Source: Candidatus Limnocylindrales bacterium
GTDB lineage: Bacteria > Chloroflexota > Limnocylindria > Limnocylindrales > CSP1-4
DNA length: 64,000 bases
NCBI GenBank assembly: GCA_036278755.1
Contig: DASUKL010000066.1
Coordinates: 625 to 64,624 of the forward strand
Direction: 5' to 3'
Under the pieces are notes generated by a model that was not told where the DNA came from, made no database searches, and saw only the letters and a program-made list of their open reading frames with translations. Position 1 is the first letter of the stretch; each line of letters opens with the position of its first letter. Positions 1 through 9,508 of this stretch are shown here, piece by piece. A program made the translations under genes and the position numbers.

Positions 1-453
1 CCTGGGGACGCGACCAGGCCGGCAACGGAGGCGACATTGATGATCCGCCCACCGCCACGCGCGCTCATGTGAGGGATCACCGCTTTGGAGCACAGGAAGA
101 CACTCTTCACATTGACCGCCATCACATGGTCCCAGTCCTCCTCTGCGAGCTCCTCGACCATGCCGAGCCAGCCGGTACCCGCGTTGTTCACGAGCACGTC
201 GATGCGCCCCCAACGGTCGATGACGTCGCCGACCGCTGCCTCGACCTCGGTGCGAGCGGTGACATCCACGGATTGGGCGATCGATGTGCCACCGGCGGCC
301 TCGATCTCAGCGGCAACGGCGACGCCGCGCTCCGGCTGACGTTCGAAGATCGCGATCGCGAAGCCCTCTGCGGCGAGGGCCCGAGCGATCGCCCGCCCGA
401 TCCCCGAACCCGCCCCGGTGACGACCGCTACCGGTCGTGTCTGCTCATCCATG
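1..453 (-). CDS. short-chain dehydrogenase/reductase (SDR); C-terminus cut by the window edge
   Basis: Minus-strand N-terminus MDEQTRPVAVVTGAGSGIGRAIA... has the TGxxxGIG Rossmann motif and an NNAG motif; ATG at 451-453. Confidence 0.8.
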
Positions 454-482
454 ACTTGCACTCCTGCCTGGGCCGCACTTCT

Positions 483-1502
483 TTATGTGATCGAGGCGTG
501 GATAGGAGCCACGAACACGACCACGTCACCGCTCGCGGCAGCGTGGTTGCCATGGCGGGGATAAGCGAGGACGTAGCCTGCCGCCGGGCTCCGGATCTCC
601 TCGAGCACGTCGCCCCAGGCGTCGCGGATCAAGACCACGGACTGCCCGGCCTCGACCCAGGTGCCGATCGGTACCTGAGGGTGGACGAAGCCCCCTCGTT
701 CTGGCGTCACCCGAAGCTGCGGCCCCAGGACCCCCTCGATGACCGGAAGGCCCACTTGTGGCTCTGGCGCGCCCTCGAGCATGTGGAGATGGCGCAGCAC
801 GTTGAGCACACCCCGCACCCCACCCTCGATGATCGTCGAGTCGAAGTCGTAGTTCGGGGTCAACTCCACGGTCAGGGTCGGCTTGCCGGCAGCCAACGAC
901 ATATCCGCGAGCAGCCCGACAAGACGTTCCTCGAAGCCGTATCCCTGTCGCTTGGCCTCGGAGATGATCGTCGTGAAGCCGAAGACCTTGGACAAGGTGA
1001 CGCTCTCACGACCAGCCGCGGAATCGCTCCAGCGCACGAAGTTGAAGAGGATCGAGTCGCGCGCATTGCAGTGCAGGTCGAGCACGTAGTCCGACTGATC
1101 GATGGCATGAGTCGATATCGCGGCGACCGCTCGATTGGTCAACGTCTCCGTCGCATCGCCGGGGAAGATCCGGTTGGCGTTGAGGCCATCCTCGAGGCTG
1201 TGATAGGTGCTCGTCCGGAAGGCCAGCGGATTCTGGATCGGGAAAGCGATGAGTCGCCCAGCCAGCTCTGACGGCTGGATGCGCTCCCGCATGACCCGCC
1301 GGATGACCTCGGCGCCGGAGGGCTCGTCACCGTGGATAAGGCCGCCGAGGTAGACCGTCGGGCCCGGTGCGGCGCCGTTCATGAGCAGGACGGGTAGGGC
1401 TAGCTCCGTGCCATCCTGCTCGTAGCCGACGACGATCCGACCGCGGGCTGACGCGCCCGGCGGGCAGGTGAGGTCGGCGACGACAAGGTCGTTCGTAGGC
1501 AT
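483..1502 (-). CDS. succinylglutamate desuccinylase/aspartoacylase (AstE/AspA) family zinc hydrolase
   Basis: 339 aa with an HGDEPSG zinc-binding-like motif and family-like layout; ATG at 1500-1502. Confidence 0.75.
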   Translation of the reverse strand: MPTNDLVVADLTCPPGASARGRIVVGYEQDGTELALPVLLMNGAAPGPTVYLGGLIHGDEPSGAEVIRRVMRERIQPSELAGRLIAFPIQNPLAFRTSTYHSLEDGLNANRIFPGDATETLTNRAVAAISTHAIDQSDYVLDLHCNARDSILFNFVRWSDSAAGRESVTLSKVFGFTTIISEAKRQGYGFEERLVGLLADMSLAAGKPTLTVELTPNYDFDSTIIEGGVRGVLNVLRHLHMLEGAPEPQVGLPVIEGVLGPQLRVTPERGGFVHPQVPIGTWVEAGQSVVLIRDAWGDVLEEIRSPAAGYVLAYPRHGNHAAASGDVVVFVAPIHASIT

Positions 1503-1534
1503 GTCACGATGCTCCTAAAATGGGTTACGGTCGG

Positions 1535-2271
1535 TCACAGGTTCGACTCGTCCGCAGCGGCGCTGACGAGCTCGGGTAGAGCCGCGGTGACCGCGCGGGC
1601 ACGCTCGGCGTCGCGCTCGCCAAGCGTGGCTGTCACCCGCTGGGCGACCGAATCGATGTGGTCTCGGATCTCGTGCTCTGCCGCGTCCCCATCGCCGGCT
1701 CGGATGGCGGCGACAAGACGCGCGTGCCGATCGGGGACGTCGGCGAGGTCGCGATAGAGGGTGTCCACGACCTGTTGAGACAGCAGCCGGATCTGGTTCG
1801 ACATGCCGTGCCAAGCGTCGAGCAACCGATGGTGGTCAGACGCCCGACAGACCGCCTCGTGGAAGCGCACGTCGAGGGCCGACAGTTTGGCCAGATCCTT
1901 CTCAGCGCCCGCGCGGCGCATCTCGGCCACGATGCCGTCGAGCTCTGCCAGCAAGGCGTCGCTATGGTTGCCGATGACCAGGCGGATGCCCATCGCCTCG
2001 AGCGTCGAACGCAGGCTGTAGACCTCCCATGCGTCCCGCGTCGACAGGGTGCTCACGACCTTGCCCCGTCGGCCCGCGGCCATGACCAGGCCGTCCGCCT
2101 CGAGAGCTCGCAGCGCGTCCCGGACGGGTGCCCGGCTCACGCCCAATCGGGACGCCAGCTGCTCCTCCACGAGCCGCTCGCCGGGCGCGAGGGTCCCCAC
2201 CAGGATCGCGTTCCGCAGACGGCCGTAGACATCGGCGAAGAGATCGGCCCGTTGGATCGGCTCGAGCATCG
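1535..2271 (-). CDS. GntR/FadR-family transcriptional regulator
   Basis: N-terminal winged HTH (LASRLGVSRAPVRDALRALEADGLV) plus an FCD-like C-terminus. Start chosen at the ATG (MLEPIQ) 5 nt after a GGAGAC Shine-Dalgarno; the ORF track extends to a TTG at 2329. Confidence 0.8.
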
Positions 2272-2290
2272 CGTCTCCCATTGCATACGA

Positions 2291-2309
2291 GAGACGGTAC
2301 ACGGTATCC
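2291..2309. promoter_or_regulatory. candidate operator GAGACGGTACACGGTATCC in the gntR/TPP-enzyme divergent promoter
   Basis: 17/19 identical to a second copy at 6289-6307; contains GGTA/TACC-type half-sites. Confidence 0.45.
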
Positions 2310-2369
2310 TGAAGACGAGCGGCGGTCAAGCCCCACCCAGGGCCCGCCCGGGGACATGGAGGAGACGAG

Positions 2370-3965
2370 GTGGCGAACGGGAGCCCTTCGGTCGCGGACG
2401 TGGTGGCCAGGACGATCGCCTCGGGGGGGACCCGCTTCGCCTTCGGTCACCCTGGCGGGGAGGTGGTCCTGCTGATCGATGCCCTTCGTCGGAGTGGCGT
2501 GCCCTTCCTCCTGACCCATCACGAGACGAGCGCGGCATTCATGGCCCTCGGACATGGCGAGATCACCGGGATCCCGGGCGTCTGCGTCGCCACGCTCGGA
2601 CCAGGAGCCACCAATCTCGTTACCGGGGTCGCCAGTGGCCTGCTCGAACGCGCGCCCCTATTGGCCTTGACCGGGGCACTGTCGACCGCCGCTCCGGCCG
2701 GGACGACGCACCAGGCGCTCGACCTCAACGCGCTCTATCGGCCGGTCACGAAGGCCTCCTGGGCCGTGCGCAGAGACGATGCCGCGTCCACGGTCCGATC
2801 TGCGCTGGACCTGACCAGAAGGCCACAGCGTGGAAGCGTCCACCTCAGCGTCCCTGCCGACGTCGCTGCCGCACGGGCGGCCTCGCCCGAGGATCCCGCC
2901 GGTTCGCGCAAGCCTGCGCTCGTGCTACCGGAGCCCGACGGCATGGATCGGGCCGCCCGGATCCTGGCGACCGCGTCTCGGCCGGCCATCATCGTCGGCT
3001 TAGGGGCCGTGCAGACCAACGCGGCCGAGCCGCTGCGCGCATTAGCTCGAGCCCTGCAAGCACCAGTGGCCACGCTGCCCAAGTCAAAAGGCGTGTTTCC
3101 CGAGGATGATCCCTGGTTCGCCGGCACCCTTGAGATGGCGGGCGACGACCTGGTCGTGGAGTTCCTCACCGACGCAGACGCCATCATCGCGGTCGGCGTC
3201 GACCCGGTCGAATTCGACAAGCCCTGGCGGCTTCAGGCGCCGGTCATCCGCGTGGACGAGATCCCGGATCCCGATGGCTACGTCCCGGTCGAAGTCGACC
3301 TTGCGGGCGACGTCCCAGCGACGTTGCAGGTGCTGGCCCAGTCCAGCCACCCATCAGGCTGGCCGAGCGACAGCACCACTTCGCTGCGAGCCCGACTCCG
3401 TGCCCTGCTGCGACCCGACGGAGACCGGCTCCACCCCACCGATGTGGTCGACACGGTGCGCGCAGCTCTCCCCCGTGAGGCGATCGCCACGTCCGACGTG
3501 GGAGCCCACAAGATGCTCGTGGGCCAGGCTTGGTCCAGCTATGCGCCACGCACCTTCTTCATGGCCAACGGCCTCTCATCGATGGGCTACTCGATCCCCG
3601 TCGCCACCGCGGCGTGCCTCCTCCAACCCGAGCGTTCGGTCGTCGCCTTCGTCGGCGACGGGGGGCTGACGATGTATCTCGGCGAGCTCGAGACCTTGGT
3701 CCGCGCGGGGGTGGATCTCCTGATCGTGGTGTTCGCCGATCGCAGCCTCGAGCTCATCCGACGCGCCCAGCTTCGTCGGGAGGTCCCGACCGAAGGCACC
3801 TCCTTCGCCGACCCGGACTTCTCCGCCCTGGGCTCCGTCTTCGGCATCACCTCCGTCGAGGTGGATTCGAAGGCGACCCTGCGGAAGGCCCTGCCTCGGC
3901 TGCTGACGAGCCACGGCGTCCGTCTCCTGGCCGTGAGGATCGACGGTGATGACTACCGCTTCTGA
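2370..3965 (+). CDS. thiamine-pyrophosphate-dependent enzyme, acetolactate-synthase large-subunit family
   Basis: 531 aa with TPP N, middle and C domains (GDGG near the C-terminus); GTG start 6 nt after GGAGGAG. Confidence 0.85.
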   Translation: MANGSPSVADVVARTIASGGTRFAFGHPGGEVVLLIDALRRSGVPFLLTHHETSAAFMALGHGEITGIPGVCVATLGPGATNLVTGVASGLLERAPLLALTGALSTAAPAGTTHQALDLNALYRPVTKASWAVRRDDAASTVRSALDLTRRPQRGSVHLSVPADVAAARAASPEDPAGSRKPALVLPEPDGMDRAARILATASRPAIIVGLGAVQTNAAEPLRALARALQAPVATLPKSKGVFPEDDPWFAGTLEMAGDDLVVEFLTDADAIIAVGVDPVEFDKPWRLQAPVIRVDEIPDPDGYVPVEVDLAGDVPATLQVLAQSSHPSGWPSDSTTSLRARLRALLRPDGDRLHPTDVVDTVRAALPREAIATSDVGAHKMLVGQAWSSYAPRTFFMANGLSSMGYSIPVATAACLLQPERSVVAFVGDGGLTMYLGELETLVRAGVDLLIVVFADRSLELIRRAQLRREVPTEGTSFADPDFSALGSVFGITSVEVDSKATLRKALPRLLTSHGVRLLAVRIDGDDYRF

Positions 3966-5181
3966 GAGCTCCGGCTCGATCTGGTTGAGCGAGGCACGAC
4001 TCGTCGATCTGGAGCAGGCCACTGCGAGCCCGCCGCTCACGCTCGAGATCCAGGACGGTCGGGTGGCGGAACTCCGCGCGGCGCCACCGATGGGGGAGCA
4101 TCACGTCGTCGACTGTCGCGGCCTGTTCCTCATGCCCGCGCTCACCACCTGCCACGTCCATCTCCAGGCGACCTACCCTTACGCGGCTCGGGACCCCGAC
4201 GAGCCCGCGGCGCGCACCGCCCTCCGGGCCGCTGCGCATGCGACACGTCTCCTGCCCCTCGGCATCGCCACGGTCCGCACCGTGCACGAGCAGCATCAGG
4301 CGGACCTTCGCGTCCGCGAGGCGATCGATCGAGGATGGGCGCGCGGTCCCCGGATCATCGCCGGCGGGCGGGCCCTGACGGCGGTGGGTGGGCACGGGGA
4401 TGGCCTGGGTGCGGCGACGGCTTCCGGTGAAGATGGGTTCTATGGAGCCGCGATGCGCGAGCTCGAAGCCGGCGCGGACCACATCAAGATCTTCGCCTCG
4501 GGGGGCCTGGCCCGAGCGGGGGAGGCTCTCGACCGGCCGGAACTTTCCCAGGCCGAGATGCGCGGAGCGGTCCGCGCTGCTCAGTCAGCCGGCACCTACG
4601 TCGTCGCCCATGCAGCCTCGGCGCAGGCGATCAGGGTCGGTCTCGAGGCGGGCGTACGCTGCTTCGAGCACGCCTACCTGCTCGACAGCAGCACTGCGGC
4701 CCGGATGGCCGAAGCGAAGGCCTACCTGACGCCTACGCTGGTCGTTACCCACACTGACGACTGGATGGCGGCGGCGGGATTCGATCGACCGGCCCGCGAG
4801 CGGAGCGCGAGGATGGCCGCGACCCATCTGGCGAGCGCGAAGACCGCCATCGAGGCGGGCGTCCAGATCCTCCACGGCACGGACTTCCCGCCGGACGGGC
4901 ACTCGTCGGGGACGACGCTGACGGTGCGCGAGCTCGAGTTGCTCGTCGCCGCCGGCCTCACCGCCCCCCAGGCCCTCCTCGCCGCGACTCGTGCCCCAGC
5001 AAGTCTCCTCGGGCTCGCCTCGACCTCGACCTCCCTCGGCCGTGGTGCACCGGCGGACCTCATCGGCGTCGCGGACGATCCCCTGTACTCCGTGTCGGCG
5101 CTACGGGATCTACGGCTTGTCATGCACGCAGGTGAGCTGGTCGTGGGGCCTCGAGCCGCAGGCCCTACCCTCCCTTCCTGA
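3946..5181 (+). CDS. metal-dependent amidohydrolase family protein
   Basis: 411 aa with an HxH-like metal site (CHVHLQ) and an amidohydrolase layout; overlaps the upstream gene by 20 nt. Confidence 0.75.
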   Translation: MMTTASESSGSIWLSEARLVDLEQATASPPLTLEIQDGRVAELRAAPPMGEHHVVDCRGLFLMPALTTCHVHLQATYPYAARDPDEPAARTALRAAAHATRLLPLGIATVRTVHEQHQADLRVREAIDRGWARGPRIIAGGRALTAVGGHGDGLGAATASGEDGFYGAAMRELEAGADHIKIFASGGLARAGEALDRPELSQAEMRGAVRAAQSAGTYVVAHAASAQAIRVGLEAGVRCFEHAYLLDSSTAARMAEAKAYLTPTLVVTHTDDWMAAAGFDRPARERSARMAATHLASAKTAIEAGVQILHGTDFPPDGHSSGTTLTVRELELLVAAGLTAPQALLAATRAPASLLGLASTSTSLGRGAPADLIGVADDPLYSVSALRDLRLVMHAGELVVGPRAAGPTLPS

Positions 5182-5214
5182 CCTCTGTCTGATCCGACCT
5201 GGATCGCGTCAGGC

Positions 5215-6243
5215 TCAGACCTGATAGACGCCGTCCTGGACGATAAGCTCGTCATCAAACCACGCCGTGGCAGCGAGAGCGCTGGCATCGATGTGCCATT
5301 TGGTCGCCATCGCGCCGCCGTATGCGGTGTTGGTCCCGATGCCGAGGTGGAAACCGCCGAAGATGCGTTCATCCTCCACCGGCCAACCCACGGGGGTGCG
5401 CGCCCGGAGGTGGCAACCGAAGCCGTACTCGGCGATGGCGAAGGCTCCGGGATCATCGAGCTCGTCGGCCATCCGTTTCCATTCCTGGGCCGCGGGCCCG
5501 CCGTCGATCTCGACGACGTAACCCGCCTCGATCGTGAGGCGCACCGGAGCTTCACCGGTGAGAGGGCGGCGCACCGGCGTGATGCTCGCGTCGACGACGA
5601 GGGTCCCACTCGTCGTCCCGAAGTCCGGTCCGCCCCCTGCCAACCCGGGCACGAAGTGGGTCCATCCGCCGGGACCGTGGTACAGGGCGTCCATGTTGTG
5701 GACCTCGAGGTCGCCGACCGAGCAGGTCACGTCAGTCCCCTTGGCTGTCGTGACGCGGAGCGTGCCACCCCGACGGAAGCGCTCGGACAAGGCCGTAGAC
5801 GTCCGCCCGATCGCCTCGAGCTCCTCCACCGAGCGGGGTACCAGGTCCAGCCCCCTCCCGCGACCGACGGTGTTCGCGGCGCTGTCGCCACCGAAGATCC
5901 CCAGCACGCGAGCGCCCTTGGCCAGCGCGTTCCGCGTGGCCTGCGTATGGAAGGCCGCCATCGTTGTCCCGATGAAGATCACGTCGGCCGCGGCCATGGC
6001 TCCAGCCACGACTTGAGGCAGCTCCTCGTTCGGTCGGGAGCGAGCCGGGAACTCGATGAGACTGACCTCGGCACCGATCGCCCGCGCGGCGACGTAGACG
6101 GCGTCCGCGAGCTCTCGTGAGCCTGGGTAATCGCGAGCAGTCGGATCGGTGACGACGACCGCCCGCTCTCGGGCCTGGAGCCGCGTGGAGTACTCGACGG
6201 CGATCTGGGCCGCCGGCAACCACTGCACGATCCTTGAGTCCAC
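5215..6243 (-). CDS. M29-aminopeptidase / NicX (2,5-dihydroxypyridine dioxygenase)-like protein
   Basis: C-terminal EYGFGCH...GIGTNTA...WHID resembles the NicX/AmpS fold. Start set at the GTG (VDSRIV) 5 nt after GGAGG; the ORF track starts at a TTG at 6318, which would bury the shared operator motif inside coding sequence. Confidence 0.6.
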   Translation of the reverse strand: MDSRIVQWLPAAQIAVEYSTRLQARERAVVVTDPTARDYPGSRELADAVYVAARAIGAEVSLIEFPARSRPNEELPQVVAGAMAAADVIFIGTTMAAFHTQATRNALAKGARVLGIFGGDSAANTVGRGRGLDLVPRSVEELEAIGRTSTALSERFRRGGTLRVTTAKGTDVTCSVGDLEVHNMDALYHGPGGWTHFVPGLAGGGPDFGTTSGTLVVDASITPVRRPLTGEAPVRLTIEAGYVVEIDGGPAAQEWKRMADELDDPGAFAIAEYGFGCHLRARTPVGWPVEDERIFGGFHLGIGTNTAYGGAMATKWHIDASALAATAWFDDELIVQDGVYQV

Positions 6244-6288
6244 GATGACCTCCGATCCCGCCCCCGCACGTTGCACTACTATATACCG

Positions 6289-6307
6289 GAGACGGGATAC
6301 GGTATCC
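6289..6307. promoter_or_regulatory. candidate operator GAGACGGGATACGGTATCC (second copy)
   Basis: Contains the inverted repeat GGATAC-G-GTATCC. Lies between the NicX-like gene (minus strand) and the Gfo/Idh/MocA gene (plus strand). Confidence 0.45.
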
Positions 6308-6352
6308 AATCCTGTCAACGCTCGGTCGCCGGCAACAGCATCGGAGGAAGGC

Positions 6353-7414
6353 GTGGCTGATGGACAAGCCCAGCGCAGTGGACCGCATCGGTTCGCCGCC
6401 GTAGGGGCCGGCAGGTTCGCTCATCTCTACCATTTGCCAGCGCTGCTCGCCCACCCGCGCGCCAGCCTGACGATGATCTGTGACCCCACGCCGTCAGAGC
6501 ACACGGTCGATCTGGCCAGGCAGGCAGACATCCCGATCGTCGCCGACCTCGATGCGGTGCTCCAGCCAGATATCTGCGACGCGGTGGTCATCTCGACGCC
6601 TGACCGCCTCCACGCCCCCCAGGTTCGCAGCGCCCTCGAGGCGGGGAAGCATGTTCTCGTCGACAAGCCATTCGTCCTTGACGGAGCGACCGCGCGAGAC
6701 CTGACTTCGGTCGCTGAGCGCGATCGCCTGGTGACGGCCGTGGCCTTCAACCAGCGGTTCTCCAACGCGTACCTGCATGCGCGGCGGCTCGTTGCAGAGG
6801 GTGAGCTCGGCGTCATCCGACGCGTCGAGACCATCCAGCTCGGTGGCGACTGGGTGATCTCCCAGGATGGATCGGCGCCCCGGCAGACCGGGCCCCTGCG
6901 GCCGGCCTGGTATCAGGACCCCGAGCTCGCGGGCGGTGGCGTCCTCGTCGGTCGCGGCGCACACATGGCGGACATCGTTCCTTGGGTCCTCGGCCGGCGA
7001 CCGGCTCGACTGCGGGCTGAGGTCGTCCCCGGCTTGTCTGGCGAGGTTGACCGAGGCGGGACAGCGGATCTCGATTTCGGCGATCTCACGTGGCGCTTCG
7101 CCTCCCTGGCTGACCCTGCGCCCCTCTGGGACGACGTCCGGATCTACGGATCGGCGGGCCGTCTCGAGATCCGCAAGCCCGAGGGCACGCTGGGCTTCTG
7201 GTCGATCGCTTACGGTGATATCCACGACGTTGTCATCCCGACTCCGGAACCGGGCATCGACACGGTGGCCGTCGACGACTTCATCGAAGCGATCGAGGGG
7301 CTACATGCGCCCCGCTGCGACTTCGCGAGCGCCTGCACGTCGGTGGACATCCTCGAGGCGATGTATCTCTCCGCCGCGGAGGGAGGCCGATGGGTCTCCA
7401 TCGGCCGGCCATGA
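6353..7414 (+). CDS. Gfo/Idh/MocA-family NAD(P)-dependent oxidoreductase
   Basis: FAAVGAGRFAHLYHLPAL Rossmann N-terminus and a family C-domain; GTG start 3 nt after GGAGGAAG. Confidence 0.8.
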   Translation: MADGQAQRSGPHRFAAVGAGRFAHLYHLPALLAHPRASLTMICDPTPSEHTVDLARQADIPIVADLDAVLQPDICDAVVISTPDRLHAPQVRSALEAGKHVLVDKPFVLDGATARDLTSVAERDRLVTAVAFNQRFSNAYLHARRLVAEGELGVIRRVETIQLGGDWVISQDGSAPRQTGPLRPAWYQDPELAGGGVLVGRGAHMADIVPWVLGRRPARLRAEVVPGLSGEVDRGGTADLDFGDLTWRFASLADPAPLWDDVRIYGSAGRLEIRKPEGTLGFWSIAYGDIHDVVIPTPEPGIDTVAVDDFIEAIEGLHAPRCDFASACTSVDILEAMYLSAAEGGRWVSIGRP

Positions 7415-7578
7415 ACCTGGCTCGCCCGCGGCGATCGTAAACAGCGGGTCCTCGGTTGGAATCCGAGCGTCGGCTCCACTTTGCAACCCGTCGGCCAGCC
7501 CGAGCGGGGTGCTGTCGCTGATCCAGGTGCGGCCTGCTCGCCCCCCGGATAGAGCCGTCCCCGAAGTAATGTTGCGGC

Positions 7579-8495
7579 GTGAAGCCCCGTATCTTCCTCG
7601 GCTCGTCCGGGAAGCAGACGAAGCTGGTGCGGTCACTCACGCGTGGCCTGGCGGAGGTCGCGGACGTCGAGCCCTGGACGGCGGCCTTCAATCCGGGCGT
7701 CTCGACCCTCGATCGCCTCGTCGAGCTCACCCGCGAGGTGGACTTCGCGGCGTTCGTCTTCGCCCAGGACGACTGGACCAGCAATCCTTCGGGATCAGCG
7801 GCCTCGGGCCAGGCGTCGCCCCGCGACAACGTCGTCTTCGAAGCCGGCCTGTTCGGCGGCGCGCTGGGCATGCGCCGGACGTTCATCCTCCACGCCACGG
7901 GCGCGAAGCTGCCGTCCGATCTCTTCGGCATGACGGCGGTGCGTTACCCCGTGAACCCCACGCCTGCCGACATCCGCGAGGTGAACCAGAAGGTCCGCAA
8001 GGCGATCGGGGATGAGGGTCGACTGACCCGCCTGGAGGGGGACTGGTGGCAGCATTCGCTAACGGCCCGGAGCGAGCGTGAGCCGTCGGCGATCAGCCTG
8101 CTCCGGATCTCTCGGGATCGCGATGGCGGTCTCCTTGTGGCCGGCCGGGGATGGCAGGAGGACGGGACGCTCTCGTCGCGATACTGGAGCGTCGCCTCCA
8201 AGGAGCACCGCGATCCGCCAGCGGTCTTCTATTTCTGGAACGGCGAGCGACCACGCGATCCCGATACCCCCAGCTGGAGGGCACGGGCGAGATCCGACTC
8301 GAGTCGGTCGACCGGGCCTCCGGCTACTGGACGACCCGATCCGACGTAGATCCGCTGCTCCGCGAGCGAACGTCCGGCGTTTACCTGCGCGCCGATCCGG
8401 ACGACATGCGCACGCTCGACAGCGGCGAGCAGCAACCGCGCGCGGACCTGCTGGCCCGGCGTCTCAGGGAGTGGTCGACGATCTCGCAGTCGTAA
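7579..8495 (+). pseudogene. TIR-like domain protein (COG4271/PF10137-type, like CBASS/Pycsar effector TIR domains) with a +1 frameshift at a C5 run near 8267
   Basis: N-terminus RIFLGSSGKQ...FAAFVFAQDDW...PRDNVVFEAGLFGGALGMRRTFIL...LPSDLFGMTAVRY matches the TIR-like signature. Frame 1 turns into R/P/S-rich junk after ...FWNGERPRDPDTP. Frame 2 continues plausibly (QLEGTGEIRLESVDRASGYW...) to a stop at 8495. Confidence 0.6.
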
Positions 8496-8647
8496 CGCCG
8501 GTCGAGCACCTCCCAGTACGAGTCGAACGTGTCCGCGAGGGGCCGGCTGATAAAGGAACCCAGGCTTATGCCGCAACGCGCTGGCCGATCTCGGGCGAAC
8601 CCGAGAACGGGCAGACGATCGCGAAGCTCTCCCCCTGATCCTGATAG

Positions 8648-9508
8648 TCAGAGCCGAAGGGTCACCCGGTTGCGGAGTTCGCCCACCGCCTCGACCCACA
8701 CGACGACCTCATCGCCGAGTTGCAGGAAGAGCGGCGGGTCGTACGACTCGCCGGTGCCGTGTGGCGTCCCTGTGGTCACGACATCACCAGGACGCAGGGT
8801 GACGAACCGACTGACTTCGGCTAGGATCTCCGCCACCGTCCAACGCATCTCGCTCGTGGAGGCATCTTGGCGGATCTCGCCGTTCACGCGACTCCCGAGG
8901 CGGAGCCGTTGTGGATCCGGCACCTCGGCCACCGGCACGATCCATGGCCCCAGGGGGCAGAAGCCAGGCCCGGACTTGCCGAGGATGTACTGGTCGCCAG
9001 CGAAGCGCTGATCACGCGACGCGGCATCGTTGACGCAGGTATAGCCGAAGACGTAGTGGAGCGCGTCCTCCACGGCGACCCGGTCCATGGTTCGGCCGAT
9101 GACGATGGCGAGCTCGGCCTCGTAATCGAGCTGCGGGTACGCGACCGGGTCCCAGGGGATGTCGTCATCGGGCCCGATGACCGCGCTGGCGAGCTTGGCG
9201 AAGACGAGGGGCGGCCCTCGTCTCGCACCCCGTGAACCGTTGGGCAGAGGGTAGTTCTCGCCGATGGTCAAGATGGTGGCTGGCGCACACGGGGCGCCGA
9301 GGCGGACCTCCTCCAGCGGCCGGCCCGCTCGAGCGACGCTGCGCTCGGCATCTCTCACCACGCCCTCGACTTCCTCAGGCGCGCCATACAGGTCGGCCAC
9401 GCGACTGACACGCCCGTTGCTCGCTCGCTCGAGAGTCACATACCGTTCACCCGCGATCCAGACGCCCTCGGGCGTCCCATCCGCATGCTGGATCTCCGCC
9501 AGCGCCAT
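8648..9508 (-). CDS. fumarylacetoacetate hydrolase (FAH)-family protein
   Basis: 286 aa with family-wide similarity (…YTCVNDASRD…GKS.PGFCPLGPW…). Confidence 0.85.
   Translation of the reverse strand: MALAEIQHADGTPEGVWIAGERYVTLERASNGRVSRVADLYGAPEEVEGVVRDAERSVARAGRPLEEVRLGAPCAPATILTIGENYPLPNGSRGARRGPPLVFAKLASAVIGPDDDIPWDPVAYPQLDYEAELAIVIGRTMDRVAVEDALHYVFGYTCVNDAASRDQRFAGDQYILGKSGPGFCPLGPWIVPVAEVPDPQRLRLGSRVNGEIRQDASTSEMRWTVAEILAEVSRFVTLRPGDVVTTGTPHGTGESYDPPLFLQLGDEVVVWVEAVGELRNRVTLRL

What the first reader, a model, noticed from the sequence alone, without database searches (positions are those of the whole stretch)
2291..6307. Shared 19-bp motif in two divergent promoters defines a candidate GntR regulon
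GAGACGGTACACGGTATCC (2291-2309) and GAGACGGGATACGGTATCC (6289-6307) are 17/19 identical. The second contains the inverted repeat GGATAC-G-GTATCC. Both lie in divergent promoter regions, the only two in this block. The first sits between the gntR gene and the TPP-enzyme/amidohydrolase genes. The second sits between the NicX-like gene and the Gfo/Idh/MocA gene. GGTA/TACC half-sites are typical of GntR/FadR operators. Accepting the motifs as regulatory moves two start codons to SD-supported positions (gntR at 2271; NicX-like at GTG 6243). The regulated set (desuccinylase-like, SDR, TPP enzyme, amidohydrolase, NicX-like, Gfo/Idh/MocA) looks like a pathway for an N-acylated or heterocyclic substrate, identity unknown.
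Basis: seen in the sequence. Interest (0 to 1): 0.6.

Follow-up and report, generated by a model that had tools for sequence, protein, structure and literature searches.

The report
Conserved GntR operator in two promoters
Two short look-alike DNA sequences between back-to-back genes are very probably the docking sites of the neighbouring GntR-type repressor that switches a small nutrient-breakdown gene cluster on and off in an uncultured Chloroflexota bacterium: a sound but ordinary regulatory prediction.

Summary
No dinucleotide shuffle of the two intergenic regions reaches this match. The decisive evidence is comparative. The same element sits next to the orthologous FadR-type gntR gene in eight other Chloroflexota lineages. 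A matrix built only from those orthologous sites ranks the window's two sites first and second among all positions of the 64 kb. Two other lineages (L015, L098) also carry a second copy in another divergent region of their cluster. The real element is larger than the 19-mer. It is about 27-30 bp, made of three (A)CSG(T) boxes spaced 7 bp apart (lag-7 self-match z about 10). Its best-conserved part is a CSGT-NN-ACSG palindrome, the GT-N2-AC class known for FadR-subfamily regulators. The GAGA bases and the GGATAC-G-GTATCC palindrome are lineage- or site-specific. The one other lineage with a separate NicX/Gfo divergent region (L004-6) has no site. Most likely this is the operator of an autoregulated repressor overlapping divergent promoters. 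Binding itself is inferred, not shown. It is a new member of a known kind; moderate-to-low interest.

The parts
2283..2309 (.). Site M1: 27-bp element GCATAC-g-AGAGAC-g-GTACAC-g-GTATCC in the gntR/TPP divergent region
   Evidence: It is the top hit of the ortholog-only matrix (27.7 bits) and was found by unbiased EM. It lies inside a block (CTCCC at 2274-2278 to GCC at 2330-2332) that is identical between the window and L001, whose overall DNA identity is 88-92%.
2295..2304 (.). Best-conserved core, CGGTACACGG (class CSGT-NN-ACSG, i.e. GT-N2-AC)
   Evidence: The C, G, C and G columns are invariant across the promoter-oriented sites compared by eye (window M1, L003, L004, L007, L015), and M2 read on the minus strand fits them too. 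The palindrome is perfect in L004 (CCGTCGACGG) and L098 (CGGTATACCG). It matches the FadR-subfamily motif class described in PMC4494728.
2281..2310 (+). Inferred promoter of the TPP-amidohydrolase operon: TTGCAT (2281-2286), 18-nt spacer, TATCCT (2305-2310)
   Evidence: Hexamers and spacing are invariant in window, L001, L003, L095, L004, L007/8, L097 and L015. The consensus scan does not call it. This is inference from conservation only, and the hexamers could equally be the outer arms of the operator.
2301..2329 (-). Inferred gntR promoter: TTGACC (complement of 2324-2329), 17-nt spacer, TACCGT (complement of 2301-2306)
   Evidence: A TTGAC box at matching distance is conserved in L003, L004, L007 and L009. 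Both L098 sites have the same TTGACA-N17-TACSGT layout. The consensus scan does not call it. Inference.
6281..6307 (.). Site M2: ATATAC-c-GGAGAC-g-GGATAC-g-GTATCC in the NicX-like/Gfo divergent region
   Evidence: It is the second-best hit in the 64 kb for the ortholog-only matrix, read on the minus strand (23.5 bits; the next unrelated hit scores 15.0). It lies inside a 42-nt block (6276-6317) identical to L001, while the flanks differ.
6280..6309 (-). Inferred promoter of the NicX-like gene: TTGGAT (complement of 6304-6309), 18-nt spacer, TATATA (complement of 6280-6285)
   Evidence: It has the same hexamer-N18-hexamer layout as the TPP promoter and matches the 30-mer matrix. The TTGCAC (6271) and TGTCAA (6313) boxes are not conserved in L001. 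The consensus scan does not call it. Inference.
1535..2269 (-). gntR: FadR-subfamily regulator (winged HTH plus FCD domain), 244 aa, the proposed binder
   Evidence: Pfam GntR 1.1e-18 and FCD 3.7e-25. Below every NCBIfam equivalog cut-off. Orthologs of 53-92% identity sit next to the element in every lineage examined.
1..1502 (-). Downstream genes of the gntR operon: AstE/AspA-family deacylase (483-1502) and an SDR (3-452, cut by the window edge)
   Evidence: Pfam. The same genes follow gntR in L001, L003 and L095.
2370..5181 (+). TPP-dependent acetolactate-synthase-like enzyme (2370-3965) and amidohydrolase (3946-5181), the operon facing gntR
   Evidence: Pfam and NCBIfam. This gene pair faces gntR in L001, L003, L004, L007/8, L009, L095 and L097. 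In L015 the first gene facing gntR is an M29/NicX-like gene, followed by TPP. L098 has a different gene set.
5215..6243 (-). NicX/M29-like protein (PF26233), GTG start at 6243
   Evidence: Match to 7CN3 NicX, E 5.7e-12, C-terminal half only. Orthologs are 342 aa and carry PF26233.
6353..7414 (+). Gfo/Idh/MocA oxidoreductase, GTG start with a GGAGGAAG Shine-Dalgarno sequence
   Evidence: Pfam. In other lineages this gene lies in the TPP or gntR operon.

Best explanation
The two motifs are copies of the operator of the adjacent FadR-subfamily GntR repressor (1535-2269).

Each operator is about 27 bp. It is built from three (A)CSG(T) boxes spaced 7 bp apart, and two neighbouring boxes form a CSGT-NN-ACSG palindrome of the GT-N2-AC class. 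ATAC/GTAT arms flank the boxes.

At M1 the operator lies across the overlapping, oppositely directed promoters of gntR-AstE-SDR and TPP-amidohydrolase. At M2 it lies across the promoter of the NicX-like gene and upstream of Gfo/Idh/MocA.

Without inducer, one or more repressor dimers occupy the boxes and exclude RNA polymerase, so the regulator also limits its own synthesis. A small molecule, probably a carboxylate intermediate of the pathway held at the FCD domain's conserved Asp/His metal site, releases the protein and turns on the whole cluster. In relatives the cluster also includes a family-5 (Opp/Dpp-type) ABC importer.

Shown here: the sites, their conservation, their pairing with the regulator gene, and their periodic structure. 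Inferred: that this protein binds them, that it represses, where the promoters are, and what the inducer is.
For: 1. Both sites exist and are unique in 64 kb. No shuffle reaches their similarity.
2. Phylogenetic footprint: the element is present in the gntR-proximal divergent region of L001, L003, L095, L004, L007/8, L097, L015, L009 and L098, whose GntR is 92-53% identical.
3. Independent prediction: a 30-mer matrix built only from L003, L004, L007 and L015 ranks M1 first and M2 second in the window, at 27.7 and 23.5 bits against 15.0 for the next unrelated hit.
4. Unbiased EM finds the element in 12 of 12 cluster intergenic regions.
5. Regulon logic: in L003, L095, L007/8, L097 and L009 every cluster gene is driven from the single gntR divergent region. 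In lineages where the cluster is split, a second site appears at the new divergent region. This holds for the window and L001 (NicX|Gfo), L015 (AstE operon|amidase-ABC operon, 8380-8409) and L098 (M19 peptidase|Gfo-SBP5).
6. Within a genome the two sites share lineage-specific bases: GAGACGG in the window, CT.CC.T.TCCCGTAT in L015.
7. NicX loci without this GntR (L011-14) have no site.
8. The core matches the FadR-subfamily rule (TKGT/ACMA boxes, GT-N2-AC in some groups, extra boxes 7-12 nt from the centre, a central site in divergons) (PMC4494728).
9. The site blocks are 100% identical between the window and L001, against 88-92% identity overall.
Against: - No binding or expression data exist.
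- The NicX|Gfo divergent region of L004/5/6 has no site (at most about 12 bits), so control of NicX/Gfo is not universal.
- The invariant outer hexamers (TTGCAT, TATCCT) and TACSGT could be promoter elements rather than protein contacts. This would explain part of the conservation without a repressor.
- The consensus promoter scan calls no promoter in either region, so promoter overlap is only inferred.
- The short core alone is not enriched in the window (9 matches against 9.4 expected with one mismatch).
- A 7-bp phase places neighbouring boxes on different faces of the helix. This is awkward for a single classical dimer.
- The recognition helix (GVSRAPVRDAL) is also shared by a 45%-identical paralog, so the protein sequence does not single out this regulator as the binder.
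- The rest of the source genome could not be scanned.
Confidence: 0.72

Rival explanations
1. The shared sequence is only promoter architecture. The conserved hexamers (TTGCAT/TTGGAT, TATCCT/TATATA, TACSGT) at fixed spacing are recognised by RNA polymerase. The similarity between M1 and M2 then reflects a common promoter type, not a repressor site.
For: The hexamer-N18-hexamer layout is invariant in eight lineages, and M2 fits it on the minus strand. A TTGAC-N17-TACSGT layout recurs on the opposite strand and in both L098 sites.
Against: - Promoter spacers are not normally conserved, yet four spacer columns are invariant and the sites show a strong 7-nt periodicity (self-match 0.53 against 0.25, z about 10).
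- The L098 sites keep the CGGTA.ACCG core without the TTGCAT/TATCCT hexamers.
- The hexamers are poor sigma-70 matches, and the consensus scan finds no promoter.
- In every locus examined the element scores only in intergenic regions of the gntR cluster, not elsewhere in the fetched flanks.
Confidence: 0.12
2. It is a genuine operator, but for a different transcription factor encoded elsewhere in the genome. The neighbouring GntR would bind some other sequence.
For: Nothing ties the protein to the DNA except adjacency. The recognition helix is generic for FadR-type regulators. The 7-bp direct-repeat phasing is atypical for the subfamily (PMC4494728).
Against: - The element travels with the gntR ortholog through at least five different gene arrangements, and even into a different gene set in L098.
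- It is absent from NicX loci that lack this GntR.
- Its GT-N2-AC core is the GntR-family signature.
- No other regulator gene is conserved in the cluster.
Confidence: 0.1
3. M2 resembles M1 by chance, or as a neutral leftover of a duplicated M1 promoter fragment, and has no function of its own.
For: - 0.3-0.4% of random real segment pairs in the window reach 17/19, and many pairs were implicitly scanned.
- The exact M2 19-mer also occurs inside an unrelated purD-like coding sequence in a metagenome (L127).
- L004-6 lack a site at NicX|Gfo.
Against: - M2 is the second-best hit of a matrix that contains no window sequence.
- It lies in a 42-nt block perfectly conserved with L001, whereas adjacent intergenic bases differ.
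- L015 and L098 independently carry second sites in other divergent regions.
- Similarity to M1 ends at the element's borders, so there is no sign of a larger duplication.
Confidence: 0.05

Closest known systems
FadR-subfamily GntR repressors with GT-N2-AC palindromic operators in divergons (the groups PMC4494728 lists with 2-nt spacing: GntR, HpxS, HypR, MdcY, PrpR)
   Same: - wHTH plus FCD domain architecture.
- The gene sits divergently from the catabolic operon it is proposed to control.
- The site lies near the middle of a short intergenic region.
- The core is a GT-NN-AC palindrome with an additional box about 7-12 nt from the centre.
   Different: - The boxes read CSGT/ACSG rather than the A/T-rich TKGT/ACMA.
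- The element is longer (about 27 bp) with a clear 7-bp repeat phase.
- The regulator falls below every NCBIfam equivalog cut-off. The best is phnR_burk at 132.6 bits against 271.5.
- The host is an uncultured Chloroflexota lineage, and the controlled pathway is uncharacterised.
E. coli NanR on the (GGTATA)3 operator (PMC8012715)
   Same: - It is a FadR-subfamily, FCD-domain repressor.
- Its operator is a tandem array of three short boxes containing GGTA, lying over a promoter.
- It controls a regulon of several operons with the same operator.
   Different: - NanR cooperativity needs a 32-residue N-terminal extension. This protein has only about 12 residues before the HTH region.
- The box sequence and phase differ.
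- The boxes here are themselves near-palindromic, so a palindromic reading is equally possible.
- No binding data exist.
P. putida NicX (2,5-dihydroxypyridine 5,6-dioxygenase; PDB 7CN3), as a label for gene 5215-6243
   Same: Both belong to Pfam family PF26233. The C-terminal halves align at E 5.7e-12, and the H-x-D of the metal site is kept (H317, D319).
   Different: - Only the C-terminal half aligns.
- NicX His265 and Ser302 align with invariant Glu272 and Gly301. The NicX ligand identities are recalled from the literature on the NicX structure, not checked here.
- Sources annotate many orthologs as aminopeptidase T.
- No nicotinate-pathway neighbours are present.

Membership tests
GntR family, FadR subfamily (regulator 1535-2269) | N-terminal GntR-type winged helix-turn-helix domain | tested here: met
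   PF00392, E 1.1e-18, residues 13-72.
GntR family, FadR subfamily (regulator 1535-2269) | C-terminal all-helical FCD effector domain | tested here: met
   PF07729, E 3.7e-25, residues 82-206. D133, H137, H182 and H204 are invariant among orthologs. Their role as metal ligands rests on general knowledge of FCD domains.
GntR family, FadR subfamily (regulator 1535-2269) | Membership of a named, functionally defined equivalog (NanR, LldR, PdhR, PhnR and others) | tested here: not met
   The best NCBIfam hit is phnR_burk at 132.6 bits against a cut-off of 271.5. All other hits are far below their cut-offs.
FadR-subfamily operator (DNA element) | Palindrome with conserved GT and AC pairs separated by 2-3 nt (NyGTNxACNy) | tested here: met
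   CSGT-NN-ACSG is conserved. It is perfect in M1 (CGGTACACGG), L004 (CCGTCGACGG) and L098 (CGGTATACCG). M2 has one mismatch in each register. The rule is taken from PMC4494728.
FadR-subfamily operator (DNA element) | Located in the regulator's own upstream or divergent region and conserved with the regulator across genomes | tested here: met
   Nine lineages. Absent where the regulator is absent.
FadR-subfamily operator (DNA element) | Specific binding by the cognate protein, relieved by an effector | not testable with these tools
   Needs EMSA, footprinting or DAP-seq.
NanR-type tandem-repeat operator | Three direct repeats of a short box, each bound by one dimer | tested here: inconclusive
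   A 7-nt periodicity with three boxes is clear. However, the boxes are self-complementary, so direct and inverted readings cannot be told apart. Stoichiometry is unknown.
NanR-type tandem-repeat operator | N-terminal extension of about 30 residues that mediates cooperativity between dimers | tested here: not met
   The HTH region starts about 12 residues from the N-terminus in all orthologs. The requirement comes from PMC8012715.
NicX 2,5-dihydroxypyridine dioxygenase (gene 5215-6243) | Full set of four Fe(II) ligands (His265, Ser302, His318, Asp320 in P. putida NicX) | tested here: not met
   In the alignment to 7CN3, His318 and Asp320 are kept as H317 and D319, but His265 aligns with E272 and Ser302 with G301. 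The ligand list is from memory of the NicX structure paper.

The most novel reading that the evidence does not exclude
The element is not a classical single-dimer palindrome. It would be a tandem array of 7-bp units on which two or three GntR dimers assemble cooperatively, as NanR does on (GGTATA)3. It would do so in a Chloroflexota FadR-type regulator that lacks NanR's N-terminal extension, implying a different way of achieving cooperativity. The regulon it controls would encode an uncharacterised pathway for a peptide-like or N-acylated compound imported by an Opp/Dpp-type transporter.
Probability: 0.2. Interest if true: 0.45.

Novelty: new member of a known kind. Interest (0 to 1): 0.3.

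Why it matters
The result gives a testable operator model, a defined local regulon and corrected gene starts for a conserved but uncharacterised catabolic cluster in uncultured Chloroflexota. The cluster comprises a TPP enzyme, two kinds of amidohydrolase, an AstE-type deacylase, an M29/NicX-like protein, two oxidoreductases and, in relatives, an Opp/Dpp-type importer. Few regulators have been studied in this phylum. The regulator-operator pair could be used as a biosensor to find the unknown substrate. The 7-bp phased box structure is a small addition to the known variety of GntR-family operators. It does not change how such systems are understood.

Tried and rejected
- **Exact-protein look-up.** The window's NicX-like protein is not on record.
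- **Metagenome scan with a NicX alignment.** 117 pattern matches, none confirmed.
- **Metagenome scan for GACGGNNNACGGTATCC.** At least 120 hits from unrelated organisms (GC 0.36-0.73). None lies next to cluster genes. The one exact M2 19-mer is inside a purD-like ORF. All were treated as chance.
- **Genome collection scan with a GntR alignment.** Only one true ortholog was found (L015). The other 79 loci are 28-45% paralogs. The source genome is not in the collection, so a genome-wide site count was impossible.
- **Consensus promoter and terminator scan.** Nothing in either region.
- **Rfam.** No RNA family in 1-9000.
- **TTGCAC (6271) and TGTCAA/TTGACA (6313) as M2 promoter boxes.** Rejected because they are not conserved in L001 and their spacing is wrong.
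- **The short core CSGTNNACSGTA as a stand-alone search pattern.** Not specific: 9 matches against 9.4 expected.
- **A hand-written spaced pattern over all loci.** It had the wrong spacing and matched nothing.
- **IolD/IolG-type inositol pathway and ectoine DoeB.** Considered as identities for the enzymes and dropped, because all scores are far below the equivalog cut-offs.

Full report
**Observation**

The window reads GAGACGGTACACGGTATCC at 2291-2309 and GAGACGGGATACGGTATCC at 6289-6307. These are the only matches to GAGACGGNNNACGGTATCC in 64 kb, even with three mismatches allowed. The shared register continues leftward as ATAC-NN-GAGACGG-NNN-ACGGTATCC, which gives 21 of 25 identical.

ORF listing and Pfam/NCBIfam scans give this gene map:

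| Coordinates | Strand | Gene |
|---|---|---|
| 3-452 | - | SDR (cut by the window edge) |
| 483-1502 | - | AstE/AspA-type deacylase |
| 1535-2269 | - | GntR with FCD domain |
| 2370-3965 | + | TPP-dependent acetolactate-synthase-like enzyme |
| 3946-5181 | + | amidohydrolase |
| 5215-6243 | - | NicX/M29-like protein |
| 6353-7414 | + | Gfo/Idh/MocA oxidoreductase |

The two motifs therefore lie in the only two divergent intergenic regions of the block (2270-2369 and 6244-6352).

The gntR ATG is at 2269, not 2271. The GTG at 6243 is right. Both starts give N-termini that match the orthologs (MLEPIQR..., MDSR..QW) and have GGAG-type ribosome-binding sites.

**Is it more than chance?**

The best ungapped match between the two intergenic regions is 17/19 and 21/25. 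It is reached by none of 5000 dinucleotide shuffles. It is reached by 0.3-0.4% of random pairs of real 105-nt segments of the window. For a reader who scanned a whole window this alone is suggestive, not decisive. The decisive evidence is comparative.

**Related loci**

Homologs of the NicX-like protein and of the GntR are rare and come from Chloroflexota metagenome assemblies. The DNA around them was fetched as loci L001-L015 and L095-L099. It shows the same gene set in several arrangements.

- L001 (88-92% DNA identity) has the window's layout.
- L003 and L095 have TPP-amidohydrolase-Gfo on one side. On the other side they have gntR-NicX-amidohydrolase2-AstE-SDR followed by Opp/Dpp-type ABC transporter genes.
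- L007/8 and L097 place NicX in the TPP operon.
- L009 places NicX and Gfo behind gntR and the transporter.
- L015 has M29-like-TPP facing gntR, plus a second divergent pair: the AstE operon against an amidase-transporter operon.
- L098 (GntR 58% identical) carries a different enzyme set but again has two divergent regions.

**The element is conserved with the regulator**

With the TPP gene oriented to the right, the gntR-proximal region reads as follows:

| Locus | Sequence |
|---|---|
| window, L001 | TTGCAT ACGAGAGACGGTACACGG TATCCT |
| L095 | TTGCAT ACGAAAGACGGTACACGG TATCCT |
| L003 | TTGCAT ACGGACGTCGGTACACGG TATCCT |
| L004 | TTGCAT CCCGTCGTCCGTCGACGG TATCCT |
| L007/8 | TTGCAT TCCGTCTTCCGTCGACCG TATCCT |
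| L097 | TTGCAT TCCGTCTTTCGTCGACCG TATCCT |
| L015 | TTGCAT ATTGTCTTCCGTCTCCCG TATCCT |

L009 and L098 carry recognisable variants: GGATAC-G-GTACAT-G-GTATGT in L009, and CGGTAGACCG and CGGTATACCG in L098.

A 30-mer weight matrix was built only from L003, L004, L007 and L015, so it contained no window sequence. It ranks M1 first (27.7 bits) and M2, read on the minus strand (6280-6309, TTGGATACCGTATCCCGTCTCCGGTATATA), second (23.5 bits) among all positions of the window. The next unrelated hit scores 15.0.

An EM motif search seeded from subsequences of three of the regions, with no prior motif model, recovers the element in 12 of 12 cluster intergenic regions. Distant NicX loci that lack this GntR (L011-L014) have no site.

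Between the window and L001, the blocks from CTCCC (2274-2278) to GCC (2330-2332) and 6276-6317 are perfectly identical, while neighbouring untranslated bases differ.

**Regulon logic**

Where the whole cluster hangs on one divergent region (L003, L095, L007/8, L097, L009) there is one site. Where the cluster is split, a second site sits in the new divergent region:

- NicX|Gfo in the window and L001.
- 8380-8409 in L015 (GCATAC-N15-GTATGC), between the AstE operon and the amidase-transporter operon.
- M19 peptidase|Gfo in L098.

Within a genome the two sites share lineage-specific bases, for example GAGACGG in the window. This is what co-evolution with one protein predicts.

The exception is L004/5/6. 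Their separate NicX|Gfo region has no site (at most about 12 bits).

**Anatomy**

Across sites the invariant spacer columns give CSGT-NNA-CSGT-ATCC, with a third, weaker CSG(T) box 7 nt upstream.

The self-match of the sites at lag 7 is 0.53 against 0.25 for shuffles (z about 10). At lag 14, z is about 5.5.

Each ACSGT box is self-complementary, so two neighbouring boxes form a CSGT-NN-ACSG palindrome. Direct-repeat and inverted-repeat readings cannot be separated from sequence alone. The outer arms (G[CG]ATAC ... GTAT[CG]C, 15 nt apart) add dyad symmetry (6-10 of 13 pairs).

**Promoters (inferred)**

Conservation of hexamers and spacing suggests three promoters:

- TTGCAT-N18-TATCCT for the TPP operon.
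- TTGACC-N17-TACCGT on the opposite strand for gntR.
- TTGGAT-N18-TATATA for the NicX-like gene.

Both L098 sites sit as the TACSGT -10 of a TTGACA-N17 promoter. The consensus scan calls none of these. The promoter assignment therefore rests on conservation only, and the outer hexamers might instead be operator arms. Either way the element covers the region where polymerase must bind.

**Comparison with what is known**

A comparative study of the GntR family (PMC4494728) reports four relevant points for the FadR subfamily:

- Palindromes with TKGT/ACMA boxes. GT and AC are usually 3 nt apart, and 2 nt apart in some groups.
- Frequent weaker extra boxes 7-12 nt from the centre.
- Single sites placed near the middle of divergons.
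- A few members (NanR, NagQ) that bind direct repeats.

NanR places three dimers on (GGTATA)3 and needs an N-terminal extension for cooperativity (PMC8012715). The present protein has no such extension.

The regulator meets the family's domain criteria but no equivalog cut-off. This is therefore a new member of a known kind: a locally acting, probably autoregulated FadR-type repressor with a GT-N2-AC operator extended by phased boxes.

**Pathway**

The substrate remains unknown. The conserved neighbours are deacylase, amidohydrolases, an amidase in L015, an M29-like protein and a family-5 solute-binding ABC importer. They point to a peptide-like or N-acylated compound rather than a pyridine.

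The NicX-like protein keeps only two of the four NicX iron ligands in the alignment to 7CN3. The ligand list is from memory.

**Limits**

- No binding or expression data exist.
- The two metagenome scans gave nothing usable.

**Verdict**

Confidence that this is the cognate GntR operator is about 0.7. Novelty is low to moderate.

Noticed in passing
window 1529-1534 (junction); L001 6249-7486: The window lacks the roughly 1.24-kb second amidohydrolase gene that lies between gntR and the AstE-type gene in L001, L003 and L095 (L097 has the amidohydrolase2-AstE pair elsewhere in its locus). The BLASTN alignment breaks cleanly there, so this looks like a deletion in the window's lineage.
   Followed up: partly
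window 7579-8638: A Cap12/Pycsar-type TIR-domain ORF (7579-8349) overlaps a second ORF in another frame (8078-8638). A C5 run at 8274-8278 suggests a frameshift or a sequencing error. The flank to the right of Gfo is variable: in L002 the same position holds resolvase, RepSA-like and DNA methylase genes, which looks like a mobile element.
   Followed up: no
window 5215-6243: The 'NicX-like' protein aligns with NicX (7CN3) only over its C-terminal half. It replaces two of the four reported iron ligands (His265 to Glu272, Ser302 to Gly301). Many orthologs are annotated as aminopeptidase T. It may be a metallohydrolase rather than a ring-cleaving dioxygenase.
   Followed up: partly
L098 8263-8390 and 10324-10531: A 58%-identical GntR ortholog sits in a different gene set (aminotransferase, aldolase, phosphotriesterase-family; M19 dipeptidase, Gfo, SBP_bac_5, two SDRs, ABC transporter). 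It still has two sites with the CGGTA.ACCG core. The regulator-operator pair seems to have been re-used for a related pathway.
   Followed up: partly
L127 717-733 (contig JAABUZ0100000910.1): The exact 19-mer of site M2 occurs inside a purD-like coding sequence of an unrelated high-GC metagenome contig. A 19-mer match in very large collections can be pure chance.
   Followed up: yes
L003 4376-5568; L097 8274-9873: In L003 the amidohydrolase is called as a truncated 286-aa gene followed by 332 nt without a gene. In L097 the TPP enzyme is split into two ORFs. These are probably frameshifts from assembly errors or pseudogenes in those contigs.
   Followed up: no
L001 9316-9570 and onward: Downstream of the SDR gene, L001 continues with a gene that starts with a lipoprotein-like signal sequence. 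In L003, L004, L007/8, L095 and L097 the SDR gene is followed by an SBP_bac_5 gene, usually with Opp/Dpp-type ABC transporter genes. The window is cut inside the SDR gene, so its transporter probably lies just beyond the left edge. No operator-like site was found in the L001 gap.
   Followed up: partly
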